The position numbers and the translations under genes are program-made. Under the pieces are notes generated by a model. That model searched no databases. It saw only the letters and a program-made list of their open reading frames with translations, and was not told the origin of the DNA. Shown here piece after piece: positions 30,885-39,215 of a stretch of DNA of 64,000 nt; within the stretch, counting starts at the first letter, position 1, and every line of letters begins with the position of its first letter. The DNA is from Spirochaetota bacterium (lineage in GTDB: Bacteria > Spirochaetota > JAGLSM01), in assembly GCA_030634165.1 (NCBI GenBank), contig DAOWBH010000001.1, positions 7,361 to 71,360 of the forward strand, written 5' to 3'.

Positions 30885-31985
30885 CTAGAATCTAAGACCG
30901 GAACCAATACTGGTAAACAGCGTTCTGAAACCACTTGTATAATCAAGACCAATACTTATATCTGTCAGTAAAAATAAAATTGAATACCTCATACCAAGAC
31001 TTGTGGAGTATTTTGTGTTTGCTGAAGAATCAATAGTCATCCTCGATTCAAAACCTATCCCTGTTCTCCAATAAAACTGCCAGTTTCTATTGTAGTAATC
31101 ATTAACCAGAAAATGTAGTTCAAAATATGCAGAAATCTCTACCATCCTGTTTCTTTTTTCGTAAAACTTCCCCAGAAAACCAAAGGATAAAATAGTATTC
31201 TCCACATCAAATATAAAATCAGCTCCAAGAGCCGTTATTCCTGTATCCGGTACAGTGCTTAATAAACCCCATTGTGAAGCAAAAAGCTCCTTGGGAAGCG
31301 CCCAGTCATACCTGAATAGTACATTAAATGTAACCGATCTTGAGCGGGCATCACCCTTGTACTTGTTTCTCGCGTCATACTTCAGCTTTGAGTCCCTGTC
31401 TATTACGAGTTTTTTGTCTTTTTTCTTTTTACGCTGTTTTACTGCCTTATTTTTAATGGTCCTTTTTTTTACCGCATATACCGAAAATTTATATTTGGTT
31501 TTAAACAGATTTCTGACCTTACTTGTAAAATCAGAAAGTATTATATTTTTTTGAGCCAAAAAGTCAGAAATTGAAACCGTTGCAATAACCATTCCTGTTT
31601 TTATACTGAGAAGCCTTCCCTTAACACGGATAATACTTGAGTTTTTGAAATACTTTACTCTTCCGAAAAATATTAAATCTGCAGCAAGCCGCCTTCCAAA
31701 TCTCTGGAGAACAAGATCATTATCAAACTGTTGTTTGCTTGCTTTGTATTTTTTACGAAGTTCCAGGATATCTTCTTTTTCAACCAGATCAACATTCGGT
31801 AAATTTCTCAGAGAATTCTTTATAGAAATACTTATCTGATGAGTATAGTTTTTTATTACAGGATTTTTACCCTTATATTCCAAATCCATAATAGATACAA
31901 CCATAAACTCTTGCGCTTTTAAATTACCAAATATTAAAAGAACCAGAATAAGAATATACCCTGTTAAGAGTGAATACCTTTTCAT
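30885..31985 (-). CDS. outer-membrane beta-barrel protein, hypothetical, with a Lys-rich internal linker
   Basis: Signal peptide. C-terminal amphipathic strands ending ...GSGLRF. No catalytic motif. Confidence 0.4.
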   Translation of the reverse strand: MKRYSLLTGYILILVLLIFGNLKAQEFMVVSIMDLEYKGKNPVIKNYTHQISISIKNSLRNLPNVDLVEKEDILELRKKYKASKQQFDNDLVLQRFGRRLAADLIFFGRVKYFKNSSIIRVKGRLLSIKTGMVIATVSISDFLAQKNIILSDFTSKVRNLFKTKYKFSVYAVKKRTIKNKAVKQRKKKKDKKLVIDRDSKLKYDARNKYKGDARSRSVTFNVLFRYDWALPKELFASQWGLLSTVPDTGITALGADFIFDVENTILSFGFLGKFYEKRNRMVEISAYFELHFLVNDYYNRNWQFYWRTGIGFESRMTIDSSANTKYSTSLGMRYSILFLLTDISIGLDYTSGFRTLFTSIGSGLRF

Positions 31986-32914
31986 TTATTCTTCCCCTTT
32001 ATAATCATCCTTCTTTTAAAAAGAAACTTCGCTTTCACAAAAGAATTTTCCGCCAAAAAAAATTTCTGAGTTTTTAGATACATATTACCAAGATCAAGAT
32101 ATAGGTCAGGATCACTGGGATTCTTTTTAATATTCTTTTTTATTATTGCAATTTTATAAAGATCCTCATTGGTAAAGTAATTATCTTTGAATATATTCTT
32201 TGTTAATTCAGAATCCTTTTTTACCGATTTGTCTGTTATCTTGCCTTCCCTGCGGTTAATGGTATCAATTCCGAGTATAGCATACTGACGCAGTTCTTCC
32301 TTGTCCTTTGATTTATTATTTTCAACGATTTTTTTCAATTCTTTGATATTTGAGCTATCACCAAGCTTTGCTATAATTGCAATAGCGCTTTTGCGGATAT
32401 CACGGCTTTCACTGCTGTAGGATGATTCTTTTTTTAAAAGAGCCTCCAAATGAGGAACGCATGTCTTATCCCCTATTTTATGCAAAGCTGCAACCGCTGA
32501 CGATCGAATAATTGCGGACGGTGATAATAAATATGAAACAACCAATGAAGTATATGAAGAGTTCCCCTTTTCTCCAATAAAAGTAAGATATTCCTCAACT
32601 AAATATGGATACTTTTCAGCTTTTAGAAGTGCAACAACCTTATCCAGGCTTTTTCTATCTTCTTTCTTTACTATTAAATACATACCGAAAACAGCATTTC
32701 TCTTTACTGAATAAGTAACATTTAATTCAAGAATTTTTATGAGATAAGGAATTACCTTCTGTGTTTTAATATCCGTAAGTTTTCTCACAAACTTTATACG
32801 GTCTGTATCATTTTTCTGTTTTATAAAATCATTAAATAGATCATGCGCTTTATCAGAAGCAAAAACTGTCACAGAAAAGAGAATCAAGTAAATGATCATA
32901 ATTATTCTTCTCAT
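31982..32914 (-). CDS. HEAT/PBS-lyase-like repeat protein, secreted
   Basis: Signal peptide. Repeated HEAT-like units (e.g. RSSAVAALHKIGDKTCVPHLEALL). Confidence 0.55.
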   Translation of the reverse strand: MRRIIMIIYLILFSVTVFASDKAHDLFNDFIKQKNDTDRIKFVRKLTDIKTQKVIPYLIKILELNVTYSVKRNAVFGMYLIVKKEDRKSLDKVVALLKAEKYPYLVEEYLTFIGEKGNSSYTSLVVSYLLSPSAIIRSSAVAALHKIGDKTCVPHLEALLKKESSYSSESRDIRKSAIAIIAKLGDSSNIKELKKIVENNKSKDKEELRQYAILGIDTINRREGKITDKSVKKDSELTKNIFKDNYFTNEDLYKIAIIKKNIKKNPSDPDLYLDLGNMYLKTQKFFLAENSFVKAKFLFKRRMIIKGKNK

Positions 32915-33119
32915 TTTATCTCCTATAAATAGCCCTTGTTCAAAACCTCACGGTTAGAAAATATCAGGGTATTATTATTAAGTCTATATTCCTATACTAT
33001 AGTATATCGCAAAATTTCACTTACACCTGTAGTAAAAGCATTTTTTTCATTTACTGTTTATGGTTTAAATATACATAAGGGTCTCTATAAAAACCCAATA
33101 AAAGATCAGCGGAAATTCG

Positions 33120-33330
33120 TCCAATCCAGGCTGTCCCTTAACTGTGAAGACACCACATAATCTCAATAATTTGAGAAAATTGAGCTAATTTCAGCATATT
33201 TATAATCAAAATACTGGAAAAAACCTGCAATTTCACCTGAAATAAGTAGTTCTGAAGTATCCGATGAATTAAGGGACAGCCTGAATCCGTAAGATCCACG
33301 TTCTATCCCATTTAATTGATAGAACGCAGA
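33120..33330. ncRNA. Candidate structured RNA or leader: long-range inverted repeat (TCCAGGCTGTCCCTTAA ... TTAAGGGACAGCCTGAA) closing a roughly 160-nt domain, followed by an 8-bp hairpin
   Basis: The 15-bp perfect arms at 33124-33139 and 33268-33285 extend with a single mismatch. A second hairpin, GTTCTATC...GATAGAAC, lies at 33300-33328. Both sit inside a 580-bp non-coding region upstream of the giant kinase gene. Strand undetermined. Confidence 0.3.
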
Positions 33331-33497
33331 TCTTTATGGATGCAACTAATCTTTTCAATTATCTATAATACCAAAATAACCTCTTTATGCCTGAAACCAG
33401 GCTTGACTTTTCCAATAACTCGTTTATGATTTAATTACAAGTAGCTTTTAAAGCTATGAAATCAACCCAAAAAAAGCGAAAATAAAGAAACGATTTT

Positions 33498-36400
33498 ATG
33501 CTAAACAAGACAATCAATAAAAAGTATAAAATAATAGGAAATATAGGCGAAGGCGGGATGAGTAAAGTATATCTTGCCAGGAATATTCATGATGAAAAAA
33601 AAGTAGCAGTAAAGTTTCTCAAAACCGGAACAATATCCGACAGAATCGAAGACCTTATAAGGTTCCGCGGAGAAGCGGCAATCATATCTGTACTCAAGCA
33701 TCCAAACATAGTAAAAATCCTTGAAATAGGTGAATATCAAAAAAAACACTATATTGTTATGGAGTATCTCAATGGAGAAAGTTTATCCGATAAAATATTG
33801 CATAACAGAAAATTCAAGGTAGATGATGCCGTAGAAATAGTAAAGCAAATATGCAAAGCCCTTGCCTACATACATGGTTTAGATATAATACACATGGATT
33901 TAAAACCCGGTAACATTATAATAAACAGTAATGTGAAATTAATAGACTTTGCTCTCGCTCAAATTAAAGAATCTACTCAAATAAAAAACACGGATGAGAT
34001 TGTAGGCACATTCAGTTACATGTCTCCTGAACAAAGCGGTACTGTAAAAAGTGAAGTTGACCAGAGGAGCGATCTTTACTCTCTTGGAATAATATTTTAC
34101 CAGATGCTAAGCGGTAAACTCCCATATAGAGGAAAGAGTATAAGTTCAATTATTCACCAGCATATATCTAAAACTCCAATACCCCTTGACAAGGGAAACA
34201 GAGAGATACCTGAAATAATTCAGATGATTGTAAAAAAACTAATGGAAAAGGATCCTGACAAGAGGTATCAAAGTACCAAAGGATTATTATCTGATCTTAT
34301 AAGGTTTGAAAAGGGAGACAGATCATTTAATCTTGACCTGCTGAACATTTCTATAAAACTTACTTATAAAACCAAGCTTGTAGGAATAGATGATAAATTA
34401 AAAAAAATAAAAAGGCTTTTTGATCATAGTCTTGAAAAAAATGGTTCAGCATGTCTTATAAGCGGAGAAGCCGGATGCGGTAAGACACGGCTGTCAGAGG
34501 AATTGCATACTTATGTTTCTTCAAATGGAGGAAATTTCATTTCGGGAAAATGTTTTTCATCAGAGAATCCTGAACCATATGCTCCTTTTAAAGACGCGCT
34601 TAATATCTATATAAACAGGTTCAACAGGTATTCAGAAAACAAAAAAAAGAAAATTATAGGAAAAATAAAAAGCCGGACAGGAAACCTTGGAGAAGCCATA
34701 TTAAAGCTCAACCCGATGCTTAAGACAATAATCGGTAAAACCCCGCCCCTTGTTAAACTGGAACCTGAAAGAGAGAACGAAAGATTTCTGATGGTTGTGA
34801 GCAAATTCTTCCAGGCTCTGGGAGCAGCTGAAAACGGTCTTGTCCTGAAACTGCAGGACCTTCAATGGGCTGATGAAGGAAGCATAGAAATCCTGAGTTT
34901 CATACTTGATAATATAAACAATATTCCGTTATTCCTTATCGGCACTTACAGGGACAACGAAGTAAAACCGGGGGGGAGGCTCTCAGGTCTGATAACAACA
35001 GCAAAATCCCAACCTAAAAGTTCAGTTAAACAAAAAAAGTTTCACAAGATTCATCTGGACCTTTTTAACAAAAAAGAAATGAACAGCTTTGTATCGGATA
35101 TGCTGCGTGACAAACAGGAAAATATACAGGAGATTTCGCATTTTGTTTTCCGGAAGAGCAAGGGAAATCCGTTTTTTGCGACTGAACTGATAAAACAGCT
35201 TATACTGAACTCTGCAATTTTTTACAAAAGAAACCGTTGGCATATTAACAAGCCGGTCCTCAAGAAAACTCAAGTATCCGAATTGATAGCTGACATACTA
35301 CTTAACAGGATAAAGAATTTAAACAGGGTACAGAAAATAATACTGTCATATTCGGCAGTAATAGGCAAAAAACTGGACATATCCCTTTTATATACTCTTT
35401 TTACTAACTCAAAGAAAAAACGGATATATTTTTCAAAAGAGAGAATTAAGGAAGCTATTGATGACGCTGTTTCTCTTCAGCTGCTTGAAAAAAACAATCA
35501 GGATAGAGGAAATTCTCTTTTTATTCATGACAGAATAAAAGAAGCTTTTTACAAGAATATAAAATTAAAGAAGAGAAGACAGCTTCACCTTCAGATTGCC
35601 GGAGCCCTGGAAAATATAAATAAAACTGCACTTAAGAAGGATATTCAAAATTGTGAAGTACTGTTTGATCTGGCTCATCATTATATAGAAGCAAAGGCTC
35701 CTGAAAAATCTCTGGAATATTCTTACCAGGCAGGGATTAAATCCAAAAATAACTACGCAAATGAAAATGCCGTAAAGTACTTTACAATTGCAAGAAACAT
35801 TTTGCTAAGGAGTGGAGATAAAACCAGTAAAATGTGGATTAAATGTACTGAACATCTCGGAGAAATATACCTGACAACTGGAAATAATGACAAAGCTATC
35901 AGGATATTTAATGAGATCCTGGATTTGATGCAGACTAAGACACAGAAGGCAAACATTTATAGACAGATAAGCTCGGGATATTTTAAAAAAGGAGATCTTA
36001 AAAACTGTGAATACTACGGCAGAATCGCCTTAAAACTCCTTGGAGAAAGAGTTCCTAAAACAAAGATAATATTGATATTGAGTATGATAAAAGAAACATT
36101 CCTGCACATACTTCATTCAGTTTTTCCTGGAGTCTTCCTAAAAAAGAAAAATACTGCAAATAGTGAAAAAAGGTTGAGGCAAACACTGATAATCCAGACT
36201 TATAACTCATTAAGCTGGTCATATGTTCTATCAGATACATGGAATTTCATCAGAACCGTACTCAGAATGCTCAACATATCCGAAAGCAGAATAGGTAAAT
36301 CAAAAGAACTTGCTATGAGCATGGGATTTTATGCCGCCGGTTGTATGGCCATACCTCTTTTTAGCAGGTCGTTGAAGTATCATATCAGGGCGCTCAAAAT

Positions 36401-38114
36401 TAAGAATGAACTTGGAGATGAATGGGGATCTGCACAGTCTCTTCAATTTTTGGGATACCTCTTTGAATGGAAAGCCGATTTCCATAGAAGCATCGATTAT
36501 TTCAGTAAAAGTCTGGATATATTCAAAAAGATCGGGGACACTAAAGAAACAACAATGTCCCAAAACGGTTTAGTATCAAACTACTATAATTTATCCGATT
36601 ATAAAAAGACACTTGATATTGGTATTGAGTATTTAGATTATTGCAAGAATAGCCTGGATAAATTTGGCATAGGAGATTCATACAACAATTTTTCAAAATG
36701 CTATATTGCCATGGGTGATTTTAACAACGCCGAAAAATACGCCAGGCAGGCATTAAAAATAAGTAATGAAAAGAATATGAGTTTGAATTACTGTATTTCA
36801 AATATCTATCTCGGTGTAGTTAATATGAAAAGAAAAAATCATGATACCGCATTGAAGTATCTCAATATAGCAAAAGATGTTTTTAAAAAAAACAAGCTTC
36901 TTAAACAATATTCTGTATTCCTTTATTTTTATTTAGCTCAAGCCTATATTCAAAAGTATAGGGAAAGTTCCAATTCAAAAGTGCTACTAAAGAAAATAAA
37001 AAAAACATGCAGATCCGGAATTAAAAAATCAAAATCATGGCCGACCCACTACCCTGTAGCACTTAGAACTATGGCCAATTATTTTGCATTAATAGATAAA
37101 AGTAAAAAAGCAGAAAAACTCTTCATTGAGGCGATAAGCCTCTGCCGGAAAAGAAACCTGCAATATGATCTTGCTAAATCACTCTACGATTACGGACTTT
37201 TTCTAAAATACAAAGGCAGAGAGATTGATACCATGTTTAATCTTGAATATGCATACAAAATTTTTAAAGGAATTGATTCAAAACTATTCCTGCAAAAAAC
37301 CGGTGATCTTCTAGGCATTAAAGAAGAACATAGAGCCATTGACAGATTAAAAGACAAACAGAAACTCATTTCTCTAATCAAGGTAAGTCAGAATATCAGT
37401 TCAATTCTAAATCTCAATGATCTTTTAAAACAGATAATATCAAAAGCAATTGAAGTCACCGGTGCCCAAAGGGGACACTTATTTATTGTTAATGATAAAA
37501 CAAAAAAGCTTGAAATTAAAGCCAGCACAAGTCCATTAAATGGAAAAATCAAACATTACTCTACCAATATAGTAGAACAGACATTCAAGACCCATAAGGC
37601 CATTATAACAACAAATGCGGAAATCGAAAAAGAGTATAAACAGTTCAACAGCATTGTTGAATATGGGCTGAAATCAATCCTATGTATTCCCATTATCCGT
37701 CATAAGAAACTAATAGGCGTTTTTTATATTGATAACTATCTATCAAGCGGGGTTTTTTCCGACGAGGATGTTGAACTCTTAAATGTCTTTATGGTTCAGG
37801 CGGCAATCGCCATTGAAAACGCAATAGTATACAGCAAAATTGATAATCTGAATAAAAACCTGGAATTGGAAATATTAGACCATAAAAAGACAGGTAAAAA
37901 ACTGCTTAAAGCACGTGATCAATTGGCAAAACGTGTAGATACTCTTGAAGGTTTTCTCCCTATCTGTTCATTCTGTAAAAAAATTCGGGATGATGACGGA
38001 AAATGGAACAATATAGAAACATATATAACAAAAAGGTCAAAAGCCAAATTCAGTCACGGTCTTTGTCCTGACTGCCTGAAAAAAAACTATCCTGAACACT
38101 CAAATCTGGTTTAA
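33498..38114 (+). CDS. Giant signalling protein: Ser/Thr protein kinase + STAND-type P-loop NTPase + TPR-like array + GAF domain + C-terminal Cys/His motif
   Basis: Kinase: G-loop GNIGEGGMSKVY, VAVK Lys, catalytic HMDLKPGN, DFA in place of DFG, SPE. P-loop GEAGCGKT near 34463, followed by an hhhhD Walker B-like segment. A long helical TPR-like region follows. GAF domain at about aa 1290-1450. C-terminus CSFCKKIRDDDGKWNNIETYITKRSKAKFSHGLCPDC. Confidence 0.75.
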   Translation: MLNKTINKKYKIIGNIGEGGMSKVYLARNIHDEKKVAVKFLKTGTISDRIEDLIRFRGEAAIISVLKHPNIVKILEIGEYQKKHYIVMEYLNGESLSDKILHNRKFKVDDAVEIVKQICKALAYIHGLDIIHMDLKPGNIIINSNVKLIDFALAQIKESTQIKNTDEIVGTFSYMSPEQSGTVKSEVDQRSDLYSLGIIFYQMLSGKLPYRGKSISSIIHQHISKTPIPLDKGNREIPEIIQMIVKKLMEKDPDKRYQSTKGLLSDLIRFEKGDRSFNLDLLNISIKLTYKTKLVGIDDKLKKIKRLFDHSLEKNGSACLISGEAGCGKTRLSEELHTYVSSNGGNFISGKCFSSENPEPYAPFKDALNIYINRFNRYSENKKKKIIGKIKSRTGNLGEAILKLNPMLKTIIGKTPPLVKLEPERENERFLMVVSKFFQALGAAENGLVLKLQDLQWADEGSIEILSFILDNINNIPLFLIGTYRDNEVKPGGRLSGLITTAKSQPKSSVKQKKFHKIHLDLFNKKEMNSFVSDMLRDKQENIQEISHFVFRKSKGNPFFATELIKQLILNSAIFYKRNRWHINKPVLKKTQVSELIADILLNRIKNLNRVQKIILSYSAVIGKKLDISLLYTLFTNSKKKRIYFSKERIKEAIDDAVSLQLLEKNNQDRGNSLFIHDRIKEAFYKNIKLKKRRQLHLQIAGALENINKTALKKDIQNCEVLFDLAHHYIEAKAPEKSLEYSYQAGIKSKNNYANENAVKYFTIARNILLRSGDKTSKMWIKCTEHLGEIYLTTGNNDKAIRIFNEILDLMQTKTQKANIYRQISSGYFKKGDLKNCEYYGRIALKLLGERVPKTKIILILSMIKETFLHILHSVFPGVFLKKKNTANSEKRLRQTLIIQTYNSLSWSYVLSDTWNFIRTVLRMLNISESRIGKSKELAMSMGFYAAGCMAIPLFSRSLKYHIRALKIKNELGDEWGSAQSLQFLGYLFEWKADFHRSIDYFSKSLDIFKKIGDTKETTMSQNGLVSNYYNLSDYKKTLDIGIEYLDYCKNSLDKFGIGDSYNNFSKCYIAMGDFNNAEKYARQALKISNEKNMSLNYCISNIYLGVVNMKRKNHDTALKYLNIAKDVFKKNKLLKQYSVFLYFYLAQAYIQKYRESSNSKVLLKKIKKTCRSGIKKSKSWPTHYPVALRTMANYFALIDKSKKAEKLFIEAISLCRKRNLQYDLAKSLYDYGLFLKYKGREIDTMFNLEYAYKIFKGIDSKLFLQKTGDLLGIKEEHRAIDRLKDKQKLISLIKVSQNISSILNLNDLLKQIISKAIEVTGAQRGHLFIVNDKTKKLEIKASTSPLNGKIKHYSTNIVEQTFKTHKAIITTNAEIEKEYKQFNSIVEYGLKSILCIPIIRHKKLIGVFYIDNYLSSGVFSDEDVELLNVFMVQAAIAIENAIVYSKIDNLNKNLELEILDHKKTGKKLLKARDQLAKRVDTLEGFLPICSFCKKIRDDDGKWNNIETYITKRSKAKFSHGLCPDCLKKNYPEHSNLV

Positions 38115-38129
38115 AGTATGTTTAACTTA

Positions 38130-39215
38130 TTACAACTTGTTTAGAAATGCAGGGTTTGTTGGATTAGAAATATCATAAAGAACAACACCATCATTTCCTG
38201 TTAGAATCATAGTGTCGTCTGTAACAATTACATCATAACCATTATAACCCTGTAATCGAACCTCTTTTGACACATTGCTTACATCTGAAACATTAAATAT
38301 CTCCAAACCATCATATCCATCACAAACATAAGCATAAGCTCCGCTTACAGCCAATCCATATGGGGCATCCATTCCTATAATATCAGTAACAAACATGTTA
38401 GATATATCACTTATATTTATTACCTCAAAACGGCTGCTTGGACCGTCAATAAAAGAGCCGTCTCTTAATGTTACATAAGCAAAATTTGATTGTACGACTA
38501 CAGGATCATAGGACCGTGCGTGTGTAAGCCTGGACAAATAAACCGGATTTGCTCTATTAGAAATAGAATATACATAAACACCTTCATTACCGCCAAGAAA
38601 CAATAAATTCCTGTCTTTAACCGGAAAAATTGTTTCAATATCCCATCCAATTTCAGCATCTCCAACAGCATCAGGATTTGTTGGATTTGAAATAGAAAAC
38701 ACCTTCATTTGTGAATATTTTAATGAATACAAATAATTGTCAACAATGGAAAATCTCGCCATCGAGCCTCCAGTACTTGACAGCATGGTTGTAGCAGAAT
38801 CTGAACTGCATCCAACTCCACATCCAAACCCGGAGTCATCACCAAGATCACCGGTAGCGCCATAATAATTGCCGGTGGCATCCGGAATAATTCTAATTAG
38901 CCGGGGATCAGTAAGCATGCTAATATCATATACATGCAAATTTCCATAACTGTCAGCATATAAGGCATTACTATAAACAGCAATATCTATATTATTAGAA
39001 ATAGCTATTGTACTAAGCCGAATTGGATTTAATGGAGTAGAAATATTAAAAATATGAACACCGCGAAATCGATCATTTACAAATAATGTTGAACCTTTAA
39101 TCCAGATTTTTCCCGGCTCTGTTATTGTATTTGGATCAAGAACTGCCCGAGATTTACTATTCATCGCACTAACAAAAAATAAAAAGACTACTAAAAAACT
39201 AATTATACGTGACAT
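38130..39215 (-). CDS. secreted LVIVD-repeat beta-propeller protein
   Basis: Signal peptide. Repeated LVIVD-like units (IAVYSNALYADSYGNLHVYDIS; AYAYVCDGYDGLEIFNVSDVSNV). Convergent with the kinase gene, 15 bp apart. Confidence 0.55.
   Translation of the reverse strand: MSRIISFLVVFLFFVSAMNSKSRAVLDPNTITEPGKIWIKGSTLFVNDRFRGVHIFNISTPLNPIRLSTIAISNNIDIAVYSNALYADSYGNLHVYDISMLTDPRLIRIIPDATGNYYGATGDLGDDSGFGCGVGCSSDSATTMLSSTGGSMARFSIVDNYLYSLKYSQMKVFSISNPTNPDAVGDAEIGWDIETIFPVKDRNLLFLGGNEGVYVYSISNRANPVYLSRLTHARSYDPVVVQSNFAYVTLRDGSFIDGPSSRFEVINISDISNMFVTDIIGMDAPYGLAVSGAYAYVCDGYDGLEIFNVSDVSNVSKEVRLQGYNGYDVIVTDDTMILTGNDGVVLYDISNPTNPAFLNKL

What the first reader, a model, noticed from the sequence alone, without database searches (positions are those of the whole stretch)
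33498..38114. 1538-aa Ser/Thr kinase - STAND NTPase - TPR - GAF protein with a C-terminal Cys/His zinc-ribbon-like motif
The protein combines a probably active Hanks-type kinase (HMDLKPGN, a DFA variant of DFG, SPE; a non-RD kinase), a P-loop NTPase (GEAGCGKT) with a helical TPR-like sensor array, a GAF domain and the C-terminal motif CSFCKKIRDDDGKWNNIETYITKRSKAKFSHGLCPDC. I recall that short Cys/His tail as a recurrent but poorly characterised output module of PAS/GAF signalling proteins, not as a named domain. Kinase-STAND-TPR proteins are signal-integrating switches of the PknK or MalT type. Adding GAF plus the Cys tail is unusual. The gene has its own 580-bp leader and is not in an operon.
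Basis: partly seen in the sequence, partly recalled or inferred. Interest (0 to 1): 0.65.

Follow-up and report, generated by a model that had tools for sequence, protein, structure and literature searches.

The report
Sensor kinase ending in unnamed zinc-knuckle tail
A real 1538-residue bacterial signalling protein carries, where its relatives have a known output enzyme or DNA-binding domain, a 45-residue four-cysteine module that is very widespread in bacteria but has no name, no structure and no known function.

Summary
The ORF (33498-38114, +, 1538 aa) and all five modules are real: Pkinase (aa 10-261, E 1.5e-56), AAA_16 P-loop NTPase (294-481), TPR array, GAF (1305-1440) and a Cys tail (C1490-x2-C1493 ... 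H1520-x2-C1523-x2-C1526).

The kinase-NTPase-TPR-GAF part is not unusual. It is a common chassis (1717 homologues, mostly Spirochaetota, Omnitrophota and Clostridia MAGs). Its C-terminal slot holds interchangeable outputs: SpoIIE, GGDEF, histidine kinase, sigma54-AAA+, AraC, GerE or HD-GYP. Only this protein among the top 120 carries the Cys tail there.

The tail is a large unnamed family. It has 24,651 clusters at 50% identity, spans more than 15 phyla and is almost always C-terminal. It follows PAS, REC, GAF, MASE6 or transmembrane sensors. No Pfam or NCBIfam model covers it, no PDB relative or fold match exists, and no paper was found.

Sensor-to-tail linkers vary only by whole heptads (PAS 35; REC 41/48/55; GAF 35/49). 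This indicates a dimeric coiled-coil-driven effector. Its target is unknown.

The window protein is also the family outlier at HRD (HMD), DFG (DFA) and Walker B (QD), so its catalytic competence is uncertain.

The parts
33498..38114 (+). Complete ORF, 1538 aa, monocistronic
   Evidence: An identical protein, P0001, is annotated 'MAG: protein kinase [Spirochaetes bacterium]' in GCA_023135745.1.
33525..34280 (+). Hanks-type Ser/Thr kinase domain (aa 10-261). G-loop GEGGMSKV, K39, E59, H132-M-D134, N139, D150-F-A, S176-P-E.
   Evidence: Pfam Pkinase 1.5e-56. PknB structures match at 5e-49. HMD and DFA are family outliers.
34377..34940 (+). AAA_16 P-loop NTPase (aa 294-481). Walker A is GEAGCGKT (323-330). 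Walker B is LKLQD-LQWAD, with QD instead of the family's DD.
   Evidence: Pfam AAA_16 2.3e-19. Motif census.
34941..37409 (+). Helical/TPR array (aa 482-1304). Pfam-supported TPR units lie between aa 786 and 1150.
   Evidence: TPR_12 9.7e-24 with 6 stretches, TPR_2, TPR_7. TPR_MalT is sub-threshold.
37410..37817 (+). GAF domain (aa 1305-1440)
   Evidence: Pfam GAF 9.3e-14, GAF_2 1.6e-13
37818..37958 (+). Coiled-coil linker (aa 1441-1487). It spans 49 residues from the GAF 'ENA' motif to the first Cys, which is 7 heptads.
   Evidence: The family-wide linker lengths are quantised in heptads.
37959..38090 (+). Unnamed Cys4(His) tail module (aa 1488-1531): PIC1490-x2-C1493-KKIRDD-G-W ... F-S-H1520-G-L-C1523-P-D-C1526 ... 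Y1531
   Evidence: Alignments A1 and A4 give the invariant residues P, I, C, C, K, R, W, A, F, H, C, P, C. The family has 24,651 clusters. AF2 pLDDT is 87. No Pfam, NCBIfam or PDB match.
32915..33497 (.). 583-bp intergenic region shared with the divergent upstream gene. It contains an 18-nt inverted repeat (33124-33141 / 33269-33286) and a hairpin (33291-33334).
   Evidence: Fold z-scores are -8.9 and -9.2 on the two strands. No Rfam match.

Best explanation
This is a cytoplasmic, multi-input, one-component signalling protein built on a common chassis. The chassis is an N-terminal Hanks kinase, an AAA_16 (STAND-like) nucleotide switch, a TPR scaffold and a GAF ligand-binding domain. In this family the segment after GAF is the exchangeable output slot.

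Here that slot holds a roughly 45-residue module with four invariant cysteines and one invariant histidine. It most likely binds one Zn2+ through C1490/C1493 (a knuckle) and C1523/C1526 (the N-cap of a helix).

The module hangs on a 7-heptad parallel coiled coil that continues the last GAF helix. GAF/STAND-driven changes in helix register or rotation would therefore reposition two tail modules in a dimer and switch their activity.

The tail itself is a widespread, still uncharacterised effector domain. Its strongly conserved non-ligand surface (KKIRDD-G-W, E-Y-I, S-A-F-S-H-G) suggests binding to a conserved cellular partner. A protein or a nucleotide-like ligand is more likely than DNA, because many family members are membrane-anchored.

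What is shown: the domain composition, the output-slot position, the family size, the heptad-quantised linkers, and the absence of any known family or fold. What is inferred: Zn binding, dimeric operation, the effector role and the nature of the target.
For: Domains.

Output slot: among the top 120 chassis homologues the post-GAF domain is SpoIIE in 34, GGDEF in 31, HisKA HK in 17, HisKA_3 HK in 15, AraC in 8, sigma54 in 7, GerE in 2 and HD-GYP in 1. The tail occurs only in the identical P0001.

The tail is a self-contained family. It has 24,651 clusters with E<=1e-3 and 20,467 with E<=1e-10. In 131 of 144 members there are at most 25 residues after the last Cys. The upstream partners in 140 scanned members are PAS (62), MASE6 (20), REC (12) and GAF (8), plus HAMP, PocR, Reg_prop/Y_Y_Y and MASE1.

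Four of four ~200-aa members tested are REC-coiled coil-tail response regulators lying directly downstream of hybrid histidine kinases. In those proteins the tail is the only candidate output.

Linker quantisation: the distance from the PAS DITxRK motif to the first Cys is 35 residues in 88 of 91 cases. The distance from the REC KP motif to the first Cys is 41, 48 or 55. The distance from GAF ENA to the first Cys is 35 or 49.

Tandem MASE6-tail-MASE6-tail proteins look like covalent dimers.

The deep-alignment AF2 model (pLDDT 87) places CxxC in a knuckle and CPxC at a helix N-terminus.

Distribution: more than 15 phyla.
Against: There is no direct evidence for metal binding, dimerisation or any target. 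No conserved neighbouring gene points to a partner. The only recurrent neighbours are histidine kinases and REC proteins.

In this particular protein the N-terminal kinase could be the true output and the tail only a modulator.

The two AF2 models differ in secondary structure, so fold details are provisional.

The window tail departs from near-invariant family residues (Y->K1502, Q->N1505, H->R1513). The kinase and Walker B motifs are atypical. This copy could therefore be functionally relaxed.

The GAF linker statistics rest on three sequences.
Confidence: 0.55

Rival explanations
1. The tail is a DNA-binding zinc finger. On this view the protein is a transcription factor, analogous to its AraC-, GerE- and sigma54/HTH-ended paralogues. 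The coiled coil would present two fingers to a repeat operator.
For: 17 of 120 chassis homologues end in DNA-binding outputs in the same slot. There is a conserved basic patch, CKKIR. The arrangement is dimeric. REC-tail proteins look like classical response regulators.
Against: A large share of family members are membrane-anchored only about 30 residues before the tail. Examples are MASE6 in 20 of 140, and Reg_prop-Y_Y_Y-TM, SBP_bac_3-TM, HAMP and MASE1. From established knowledge of one-component systems, this is rare for DNA-binding outputs. The module also contains conserved acidic DD and E residues. It has no fold match to any DNA-binding zinc finger.
Confidence: 0.2
2. The tail is a redox or metal sensor rather than an output. 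It would be a Zn-thiolate switch or an Fe-S cluster site, like Hsp33 or RsrA. It would add an oxidative or metal input, and the real output of this protein would be the Ser/Thr kinase.
For: There are two CxxC motifs, one of CPxC type at a helix N-terminus, plus an invariant His. The family is enriched in anaerobic lineages such as Desulfobacterota, Nitrospirota and Anaerolineae. This protein has an enzymatic kinase domain that could serve as its output.
Against: Many members (REC-tail, PAS-tail, TM-tail) would then have no output at all. The position is always C-terminal, after a heptad-quantised linker, which is typical of effectors. The many invariant non-Cys surface residues are not needed for a simple thiol switch.
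Confidence: 0.15
3. The tail is only a structural dimerisation or stability cap with no signalling role of its own. The protein would then be a degenerating paralogue of the chassis family that lost its output domain.
For: The window protein is the family outlier at HRD, DFG and Walker B. Its nearest non-identical relative is only 49% identical. Its tail deviates at three near-invariant positions.
Against: The ORF is intact over 4.6 kb in a genome of about 35% GC. The catalytic K, E, D, N and D residues are retained. About 60% identity in the tail across phyla and 24,651 clusters implies strong selection on more than folding.
Confidence: 0.1

Closest known systems
Kinase-AAA_16-TPR-GAF-output family of Spirochaetota, Omnitrophota and Clostridia MAGs (annotated as protein kinase, SpoIIE phosphatase, diguanylate cyclase or sigma54 regulator)
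   Same: It has the same four N-terminal modules in the same order. Identity is 37-49% over 93-97% of the length.
   Different: Those proteins end in SpoIIE, GGDEF, HisKA/HATPase, HisKA_3, sigma54-AAA+/HTH_8, AraC, GerE or HD-GYP. This one ends in the unnamed Cys tail. It also has HMD, DFA and QD instead of HRD, DFG and DD.
Cyanobacterial 'dual protein kinases' (cbSTKIII; HstK/Alr2258, Pkn40/Pkn41)
   Same: They have an N-terminal Ser/Thr kinase, at least one GAF, and a C-terminal signalling output in one polypeptide (PMC2176072).
   Different: Their output is a histidine kinase. The cited survey does not describe the NTPase/TPR part. I did not compare sequences with these proteins directly.
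Mycobacterium PknK / MalT-type (LAL) STAND regulators
   Same: They combine a P-loop AAA_16 NTPase with a TPR-like sensor array. PknK also has an N-terminal Hanks kinase (from established knowledge).
   Different: TPR_MalT is only sub-threshold here, 24 bits against a cutoff of 45. PknK and MalT have neither a GAF nor a Cys tail. MalT ends in a LuxR HTH.
Small zinc-knuckle, treble-clef or zinc-ribbon modules (ClpX C4, DZR, DksA-type, ZAS anti-sigma HxxxCxxC)
   Same: They also have two Cys pairs about 30 residues apart. In the model the knuckle plus helix-cap geometry is similar.

Membership tests
Hanks-type (eukaryote-like) Ser/Thr protein kinase | Pkinase profile match above the curated threshold | tested here: met
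   PF00069 scores 192 bits against a cutoff of 31.7, E 1.5e-56. PknB structures match at 5e-49.
Hanks-type (eukaryote-like) Ser/Thr protein kinase | Catalytic residues: G-loop, VAIK Lys, alphaC Glu, HRD Asp, catalytic-loop Asn, DFG Asp | tested here: met
   GEGGMSKV at 17-24, K39, E59, D134, N139 and D150 are all present.
Hanks-type (eukaryote-like) Ser/Thr protein kinase | Canonical HRD Arg and DFG Gly (RD-type regulation and DFG flexibility) | tested here: not met
   The protein has HMD and DFA. Among 120 family members, 100 have HRD and 101 have DFG. This affects regulation or activity, not fold membership.
Hanks-type (eukaryote-like) Ser/Thr protein kinase | Phosphotransfer activity | not testable with these tools
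   Needs an in vitro kinase assay.
STAND / AAA_16 P-loop NTPase | AAA_16 profile match and Walker A GxxxxGK[ST] | tested here: met
   PF13191 scores 70.9 bits against a cutoff of 32.6. GEAGCGKT is present.
STAND / AAA_16 P-loop NTPase | Walker B hhhhDD | tested here: inconclusive
   The sequence is LKLQD, so the first acidic residue is replaced by Gln. 91 of 120 relatives have DD.
STAND / AAA_16 P-loop NTPase | C-terminal helical/winged-helix arm followed by a repeat sensor (TPR) | tested here: inconclusive
   The TPR array is confirmed. The arm/winged-helix region aa 482-785 has no profile hit and was not modelled.
MalT-type TPR sensor | TPR_MalT profile above threshold | tested here: not met
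   24-27 bits against a cutoff of 45.
GAF domain | GAF profile above threshold | tested here: met
   PF01590 scores 52.5 bits against 22.4. PF13185 scores 51.4 against 28.6. The ligand is unknown.
Any named zinc-finger or zinc-ribbon family (tail) | Profile or fold match to a described family | tested here: not met
Unnamed Cys4(His) C-terminal tail family (defined here) | L-x-G-x-L-P-I-C-x2-C-K-K-I-R-D-D-x-G-x-W ... A-x-F-S-H-G-x-C-P-x-C at the extreme C-terminus after a coiled coil | tested here: met
   The window tail is 48-58% identical to 20 members. All invariant columns are kept. 12 residues follow the last Cys.
Unnamed Cys4(His) C-terminal tail family (defined here) | Metal (Zn) binding | not testable with these tools
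   Inferred from four invariant Cys residues and the model geometry.

The most novel reading that the evidence does not exclude
The C-terminal Cys4(His) module may be a genuinely undescribed class of bacterial signal-output domain. It is one of the most abundant still-unnamed ones, with more than 24,000 clusters at 50% identity in over 15 phyla. It serves PAS, GAF, REC, MASE6 and transmembrane sensors. It would act as a coiled-coil-actuated dimer on a conserved, unknown cellular target through a mechanism unlike the known enzymatic or HTH outputs. The window protein would provide a natural domain-swap experiment showing that the module is interchangeable with SpoIIE, GGDEF, histidine-kinase and HTH outputs.
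Probability: 0.45. Interest if true: 0.8.

Novelty: new variant of a known kind. Interest (0 to 1): 0.6.

Why it matters
Censuses of bacterial signal transduction classify proteins by their output domain. Proteins ending in this tail are currently read as having no output, or as 'PAS domain S-box protein' or 'hypothetical'. If the tail is an effector, thousands of sensors and response regulators gain a new output class with an unknown target. These occur across Desulfobacterota, Nitrospirota, Chloroflexota, the PVC group, Spirochaetota and other phyla. The chassis family in this window places the tail in the same slot as well-understood outputs. The heptad-quantised linkers give a concrete, testable actuation mechanism.

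Tried and rejected
- Pfam and NCBIfam on the isolated tail at E<=10 gave nothing. On ten other tails only knuckle-level noise appeared.
- Literature searches found no description of the module. I searched motif strings (CKKIRD, FSHGICP and others; 0 papers), MASE6 and several keyword combinations. The archaeal HalOD2 and TackOD1 Cys-rich output domains in PMC5847659 are different.
- Neighbour clustering around 66 tail genes looked for a conserved partner. Only histidine kinases and REC proteins recur.
- 'Stand-alone' small tail proteins are doubtful. Two of the three examined abut or overlap an upstream ORF and look like split genes, so I do not rely on them.
- I considered a resemblance of C..C..I.D.G.W to the YacG gyrase-inhibitor finger and of HxxCxxC to the ZAS anti-sigma motif, both from memory. 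No profile support was found and the spacing differs, so I dropped both.
- A riboswitch or leader in the 583-bp intergenic region: no Rfam hit. The 18-mer of its inverted repeat gave only chance-level 18-21-nt matches in metagenomes.
- Plasmid search found one IS21-disrupted GAF...tail remnant in Dongshaea marina, which was uninformative.


Full report
**Observation**

The window holds one uninterrupted ORF at 33498-38114 on the + strand, with an ATG start and 1538 codons. The opposite strand is full of stops.

Pfam assigns these domains:
- Pkinase, aa 10-261, E 1.5e-56
- AAA_16, aa 294-481, E 2.3e-19
- several TPR families between aa 786 and 1150 (TPR_12, E 9.8e-22)
- GAF, aa 1305-1440, E 9.3e-14

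NCBIfam agrees on the kinase and GAF parts. PknB and StkP kinase structures are the nearest solved relatives, at 5e-49.

The last roughly 90 residues hit nothing in Pfam or NCBIfam, even at E<=10.

The gene is flanked by a divergent HEAT-repeat gene (31982-32914, - strand) and a convergent LVIVD-repeat gene (38130-39215, - strand). It is therefore monocistronic.

The '580-bp leader' is a 583-bp intergenic region. It has no Rfam match, and its promoter-like sites occur at the chance rate (30 found against 28 +/- 5.3 expected).

An identical protein is deposited as 'MAG: protein kinase [Spirochaetes bacterium]', GCA_023135745.1.

**The chassis is common; the tail in its output slot is not**

A search of 5.8 billion proteins returned 1717 homologues with E<=1e-10. 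The best non-identical hit is 49% identical over 96% of the length.

The top 120 nearly all share Pkinase, AAA_16, TPR and GAF in that order, and differ in what follows GAF. By the precomputed Pfam lists the counts are:

| Post-GAF output | Proteins |
|---|---|
| SpoIIE (PP2C phosphatase) | 34 |
| GGDEF | 31 |
| HisKA/HATPase histidine kinase | 17 |
| HisKA_3 histidine kinase | 15 |
| AraC HTH | 8 |
| sigma54-AAA+/HTH_8 | 7 |
| GerE | 2 |
| HD-GYP | 1 |
| partial or none | 4 |
| Cys tail (the identical P0001) | 1 |

A regular-expression scan confirms that only P0001 has the tail.

GAF is therefore the norm in this family, not an addition. The segment after GAF is an interchangeable output position. 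The closest described relatives are the cyanobacterial STK-GAF-histidine-kinase 'dual kinases' such as HstK (PMC2176072).

The PknK/MalT analogy is loose, because TPR_MalT scores only 24-27 bits against a cutoff of 45.

One further, very distant protein has the same module order. It comes from a Treponematales MAG (L030, 1314 aa). It has a degenerate kinase-like domain (HRA, 24% identity), a long helical region, a GAF, and a tail (28% identity over the aligned GAF-to-tail region).

**The window protein is an outlier within its family**

Its invariant catalytic residues are retained: G-loop GEGGMSKV, K39, E59, D134, N139 and D150. Three other positions are atypical:
- 100 of the 120 relatives have HRD and only this protein has HMD.
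- 101 have DFG and two have DFA.
- 91 have Walker B DD and only this protein has QD.

'Non-RD' status implies regulation independent of activation-loop phosphorylation (established kinase knowledge). Taken together, the three deviations leave catalytic competence of both the kinase and the NTPase open.

**The tail is a large, unnamed, highly conserved family**

A single-sequence search with the last 69 residues found 22 short proteins that are 55-68% identical. Their alignment (A1) shows these invariant residues: L, P, I, C, C, K, K, I, R, W, A, F, H, C, P, C.

A profile of A1 was run exhaustively against 1.84 billion cluster representatives. It matched 24,651 proteins at E<=1e-3, 20,467 at E<=1e-10 and 2,493 at E<=1e-30.

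In 131 of 144 top members, at most 25 residues follow the last Cys.

Pfam scanning of 140 members shows what precedes the tail:
- PAS in 62
- MASE6 in 20
- REC in 12
- GAF in 8
- also HAMP, PocR, Reg_prop/Y_Y_Y and MASE1

No Pfam model covers the tail itself in any of these members.

The 80 best come from Desulfobacterota, Nitrospirota, Chloroflexota, Verrucomicrobiota, Lentisphaerota, Kiritimatiellia, Planctomycetota, Acidobacteriota, Spirochaetota, Fibrobacterota, Myxococcota, Zixibacteria, Latescibacterota, Cloacimonadota, Ignavibacteria, Nitrospinota, Bacteroidales, Gammaproteobacteria and others.

Further architectures were confirmed by Pfam:
- Reg_prop-Y_Y_Y-TM-tail
- SBP_bac_3-TM-tail
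- REC-PAS-PAS-tail
- MASE6-tail
- multi-PAS-tail

Four of four ~200-aa members tested are REC-coiled coil-tail response regulators lying directly downstream of hybrid histidine kinases. In these proteins the tail is the only possible output.

Source annotations call such proteins 'hypothetical' or 'PAS domain S-box protein'.

Full-text searches for the motif strings and for descriptive keywords found no paper describing the module. The Cys-rich archaeal output domains HalOD2 and TackOD1 are different.

**Structure**

With 21 sequences, AF2 gave pLDDT 75.5. With 126 sequences it gave pLDDT 87.

The confident model has C1490-x2-C1493 in a knuckle leading into a short beta-hairpin (KIR-DDDG-KW). 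A helix follows (NIETYITK), then a loop carrying F-S-H1520-G. C1523-P-D-C1526 sits at the N-terminus of the next helix. This is a treble-clef-like arrangement compatible with one Zn(Cys)4 site.

Zn binding is an inference.

**Mechanistic clue: heptad-quantised linkers**

I measured the distance from a conserved motif at the end of the upstream sensor to the first Cys of the tail.

| Upstream motif | Distance to first Cys | Cases |
|---|---|---|
| PAS 'DITxRK' | 35 residues | 88 of 91 |
| REC 'KP' | 41, 48 or 55 residues | 6, 6 and 2 |
| GAF 'ENA' | 35 or 49 residues (the window protein has 49) | 1 and 2 |

All differences are multiples of seven. This is the signature of a continuous parallel coiled coil (a signalling helix) coupling a dimeric sensor to a dimeric effector. 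The same is known for histidine kinases, GGDEF domains and cyclases.

Tandem MASE6-tail-MASE6-tail proteins fit a requirement for two tails. Membrane-anchored members place the tail only about 30 residues after the last transmembrane helix.

Because DNA-binding outputs are rarely membrane-tethered (established knowledge of one-component systems), I favour a protein or small-ligand target over DNA. This step is inference.

Neighbour clustering found no conserved partner gene.

**Verdict**

The protein is a new variant of a known kind: a member of the kinase-NTPase-TPR-GAF chassis family that carries a rare output. The valuable element is the tail, an abundant, cross-phylum, sequence-rigid C-terminal module without a name, structure or function.

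The rivals I cannot exclude are a DNA-binding finger, a redox/metal input module, and a mere structural cap on a degenerating paralogue. Each is testable by metal analysis, linker engineering and partner screens.

**Side observations**

The intergenic region contains an 18-nt inverted repeat with 127 nt between its arms, plus an adjacent 17-nt hairpin. Together they fold far better than shuffled sequence, with z about -9 on either strand. No Rfam family matches, and no extended match was found in metagenomes.

Noticed in passing
window 33115-33340 (within the intergenic region 32915-33497): There is a strongly structured element. It consists of an 18-nt inverted repeat (33124-33141 / 33269-33286, 127 nt apart) followed by a 17-nt-arm hairpin (33291-33334). 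Fold z-scores are -8.9 on the + strand and -9.2 on the - strand. It has no Rfam match. The arm occurs only at this site in the window. Metagenome matches to the 18-mer are chance-level. It could be a MITE-like remnant, an sRNA or an operator.
   Followed up: partly
window 33891-33899, 33945-33953, 34854-34868 (aa 132-134, 150-152, 453-457): This protein deviates from its own family at three usually conserved positions at once: HRD->HMD (unique among 120), DFG->DFA (2 of 120), and Walker B DD->QD (unique). This suggests altered or reduced kinase and NTPase chemistry.
   Followed up: partly
L030 2257-6201 (Treponematales MAG JBGSKZ010000273.1): A 1314-aa protein has a degenerate kinase-like domain (HRA instead of HRD, no Pfam kinase hit), a long helical region, a GAF and the same Cys tail. 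It is a distant second instance of the module order, apparently with a pseudokinase.
   Followed up: partly
P0143-P0180, e.g. P0147, P0152, P0156: About 500-aa proteins carry two tails in a tandem [membrane MASE6-like domain - coiled coil - tail] x2 arrangement. These look like covalently fused dimers of the minimal sensor-tail unit.
   Followed up: partly
L082 3077-4330 and L083 3777-4360: Apparent stand-alone ~110-aa tail proteins on Mb-size contigs start exactly at, or overlap, the end of an upstream ORF (a PAS protein in L082). They are probably frameshift-split genes in long-read assemblies, not true small proteins.
   Followed up: partly
L096 (Dongshaea marina plasmid NZ_CP028898.1, record 36163-36303): A tail-coding remnant lies downstream of an IS21 transposase that appears to have split a GAF-domain gene. 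The remnant is unannotated in the record table.
   Followed up: no
window 32936-33160 (+): A 74-aa TTG-start ORF lies inside the intergenic region. It has no Pfam hit and overlaps the left arm of the inverted repeat. It is probably not a gene.
   Followed up: no
L084 1-3541: A 98-aa tail protein with a 460-nt upstream gap lies downstream of a 1468-aa TCAD9 / nSTAND_NTPase5 protein. This is a single case, and the association is unverified.
   Followed up: no
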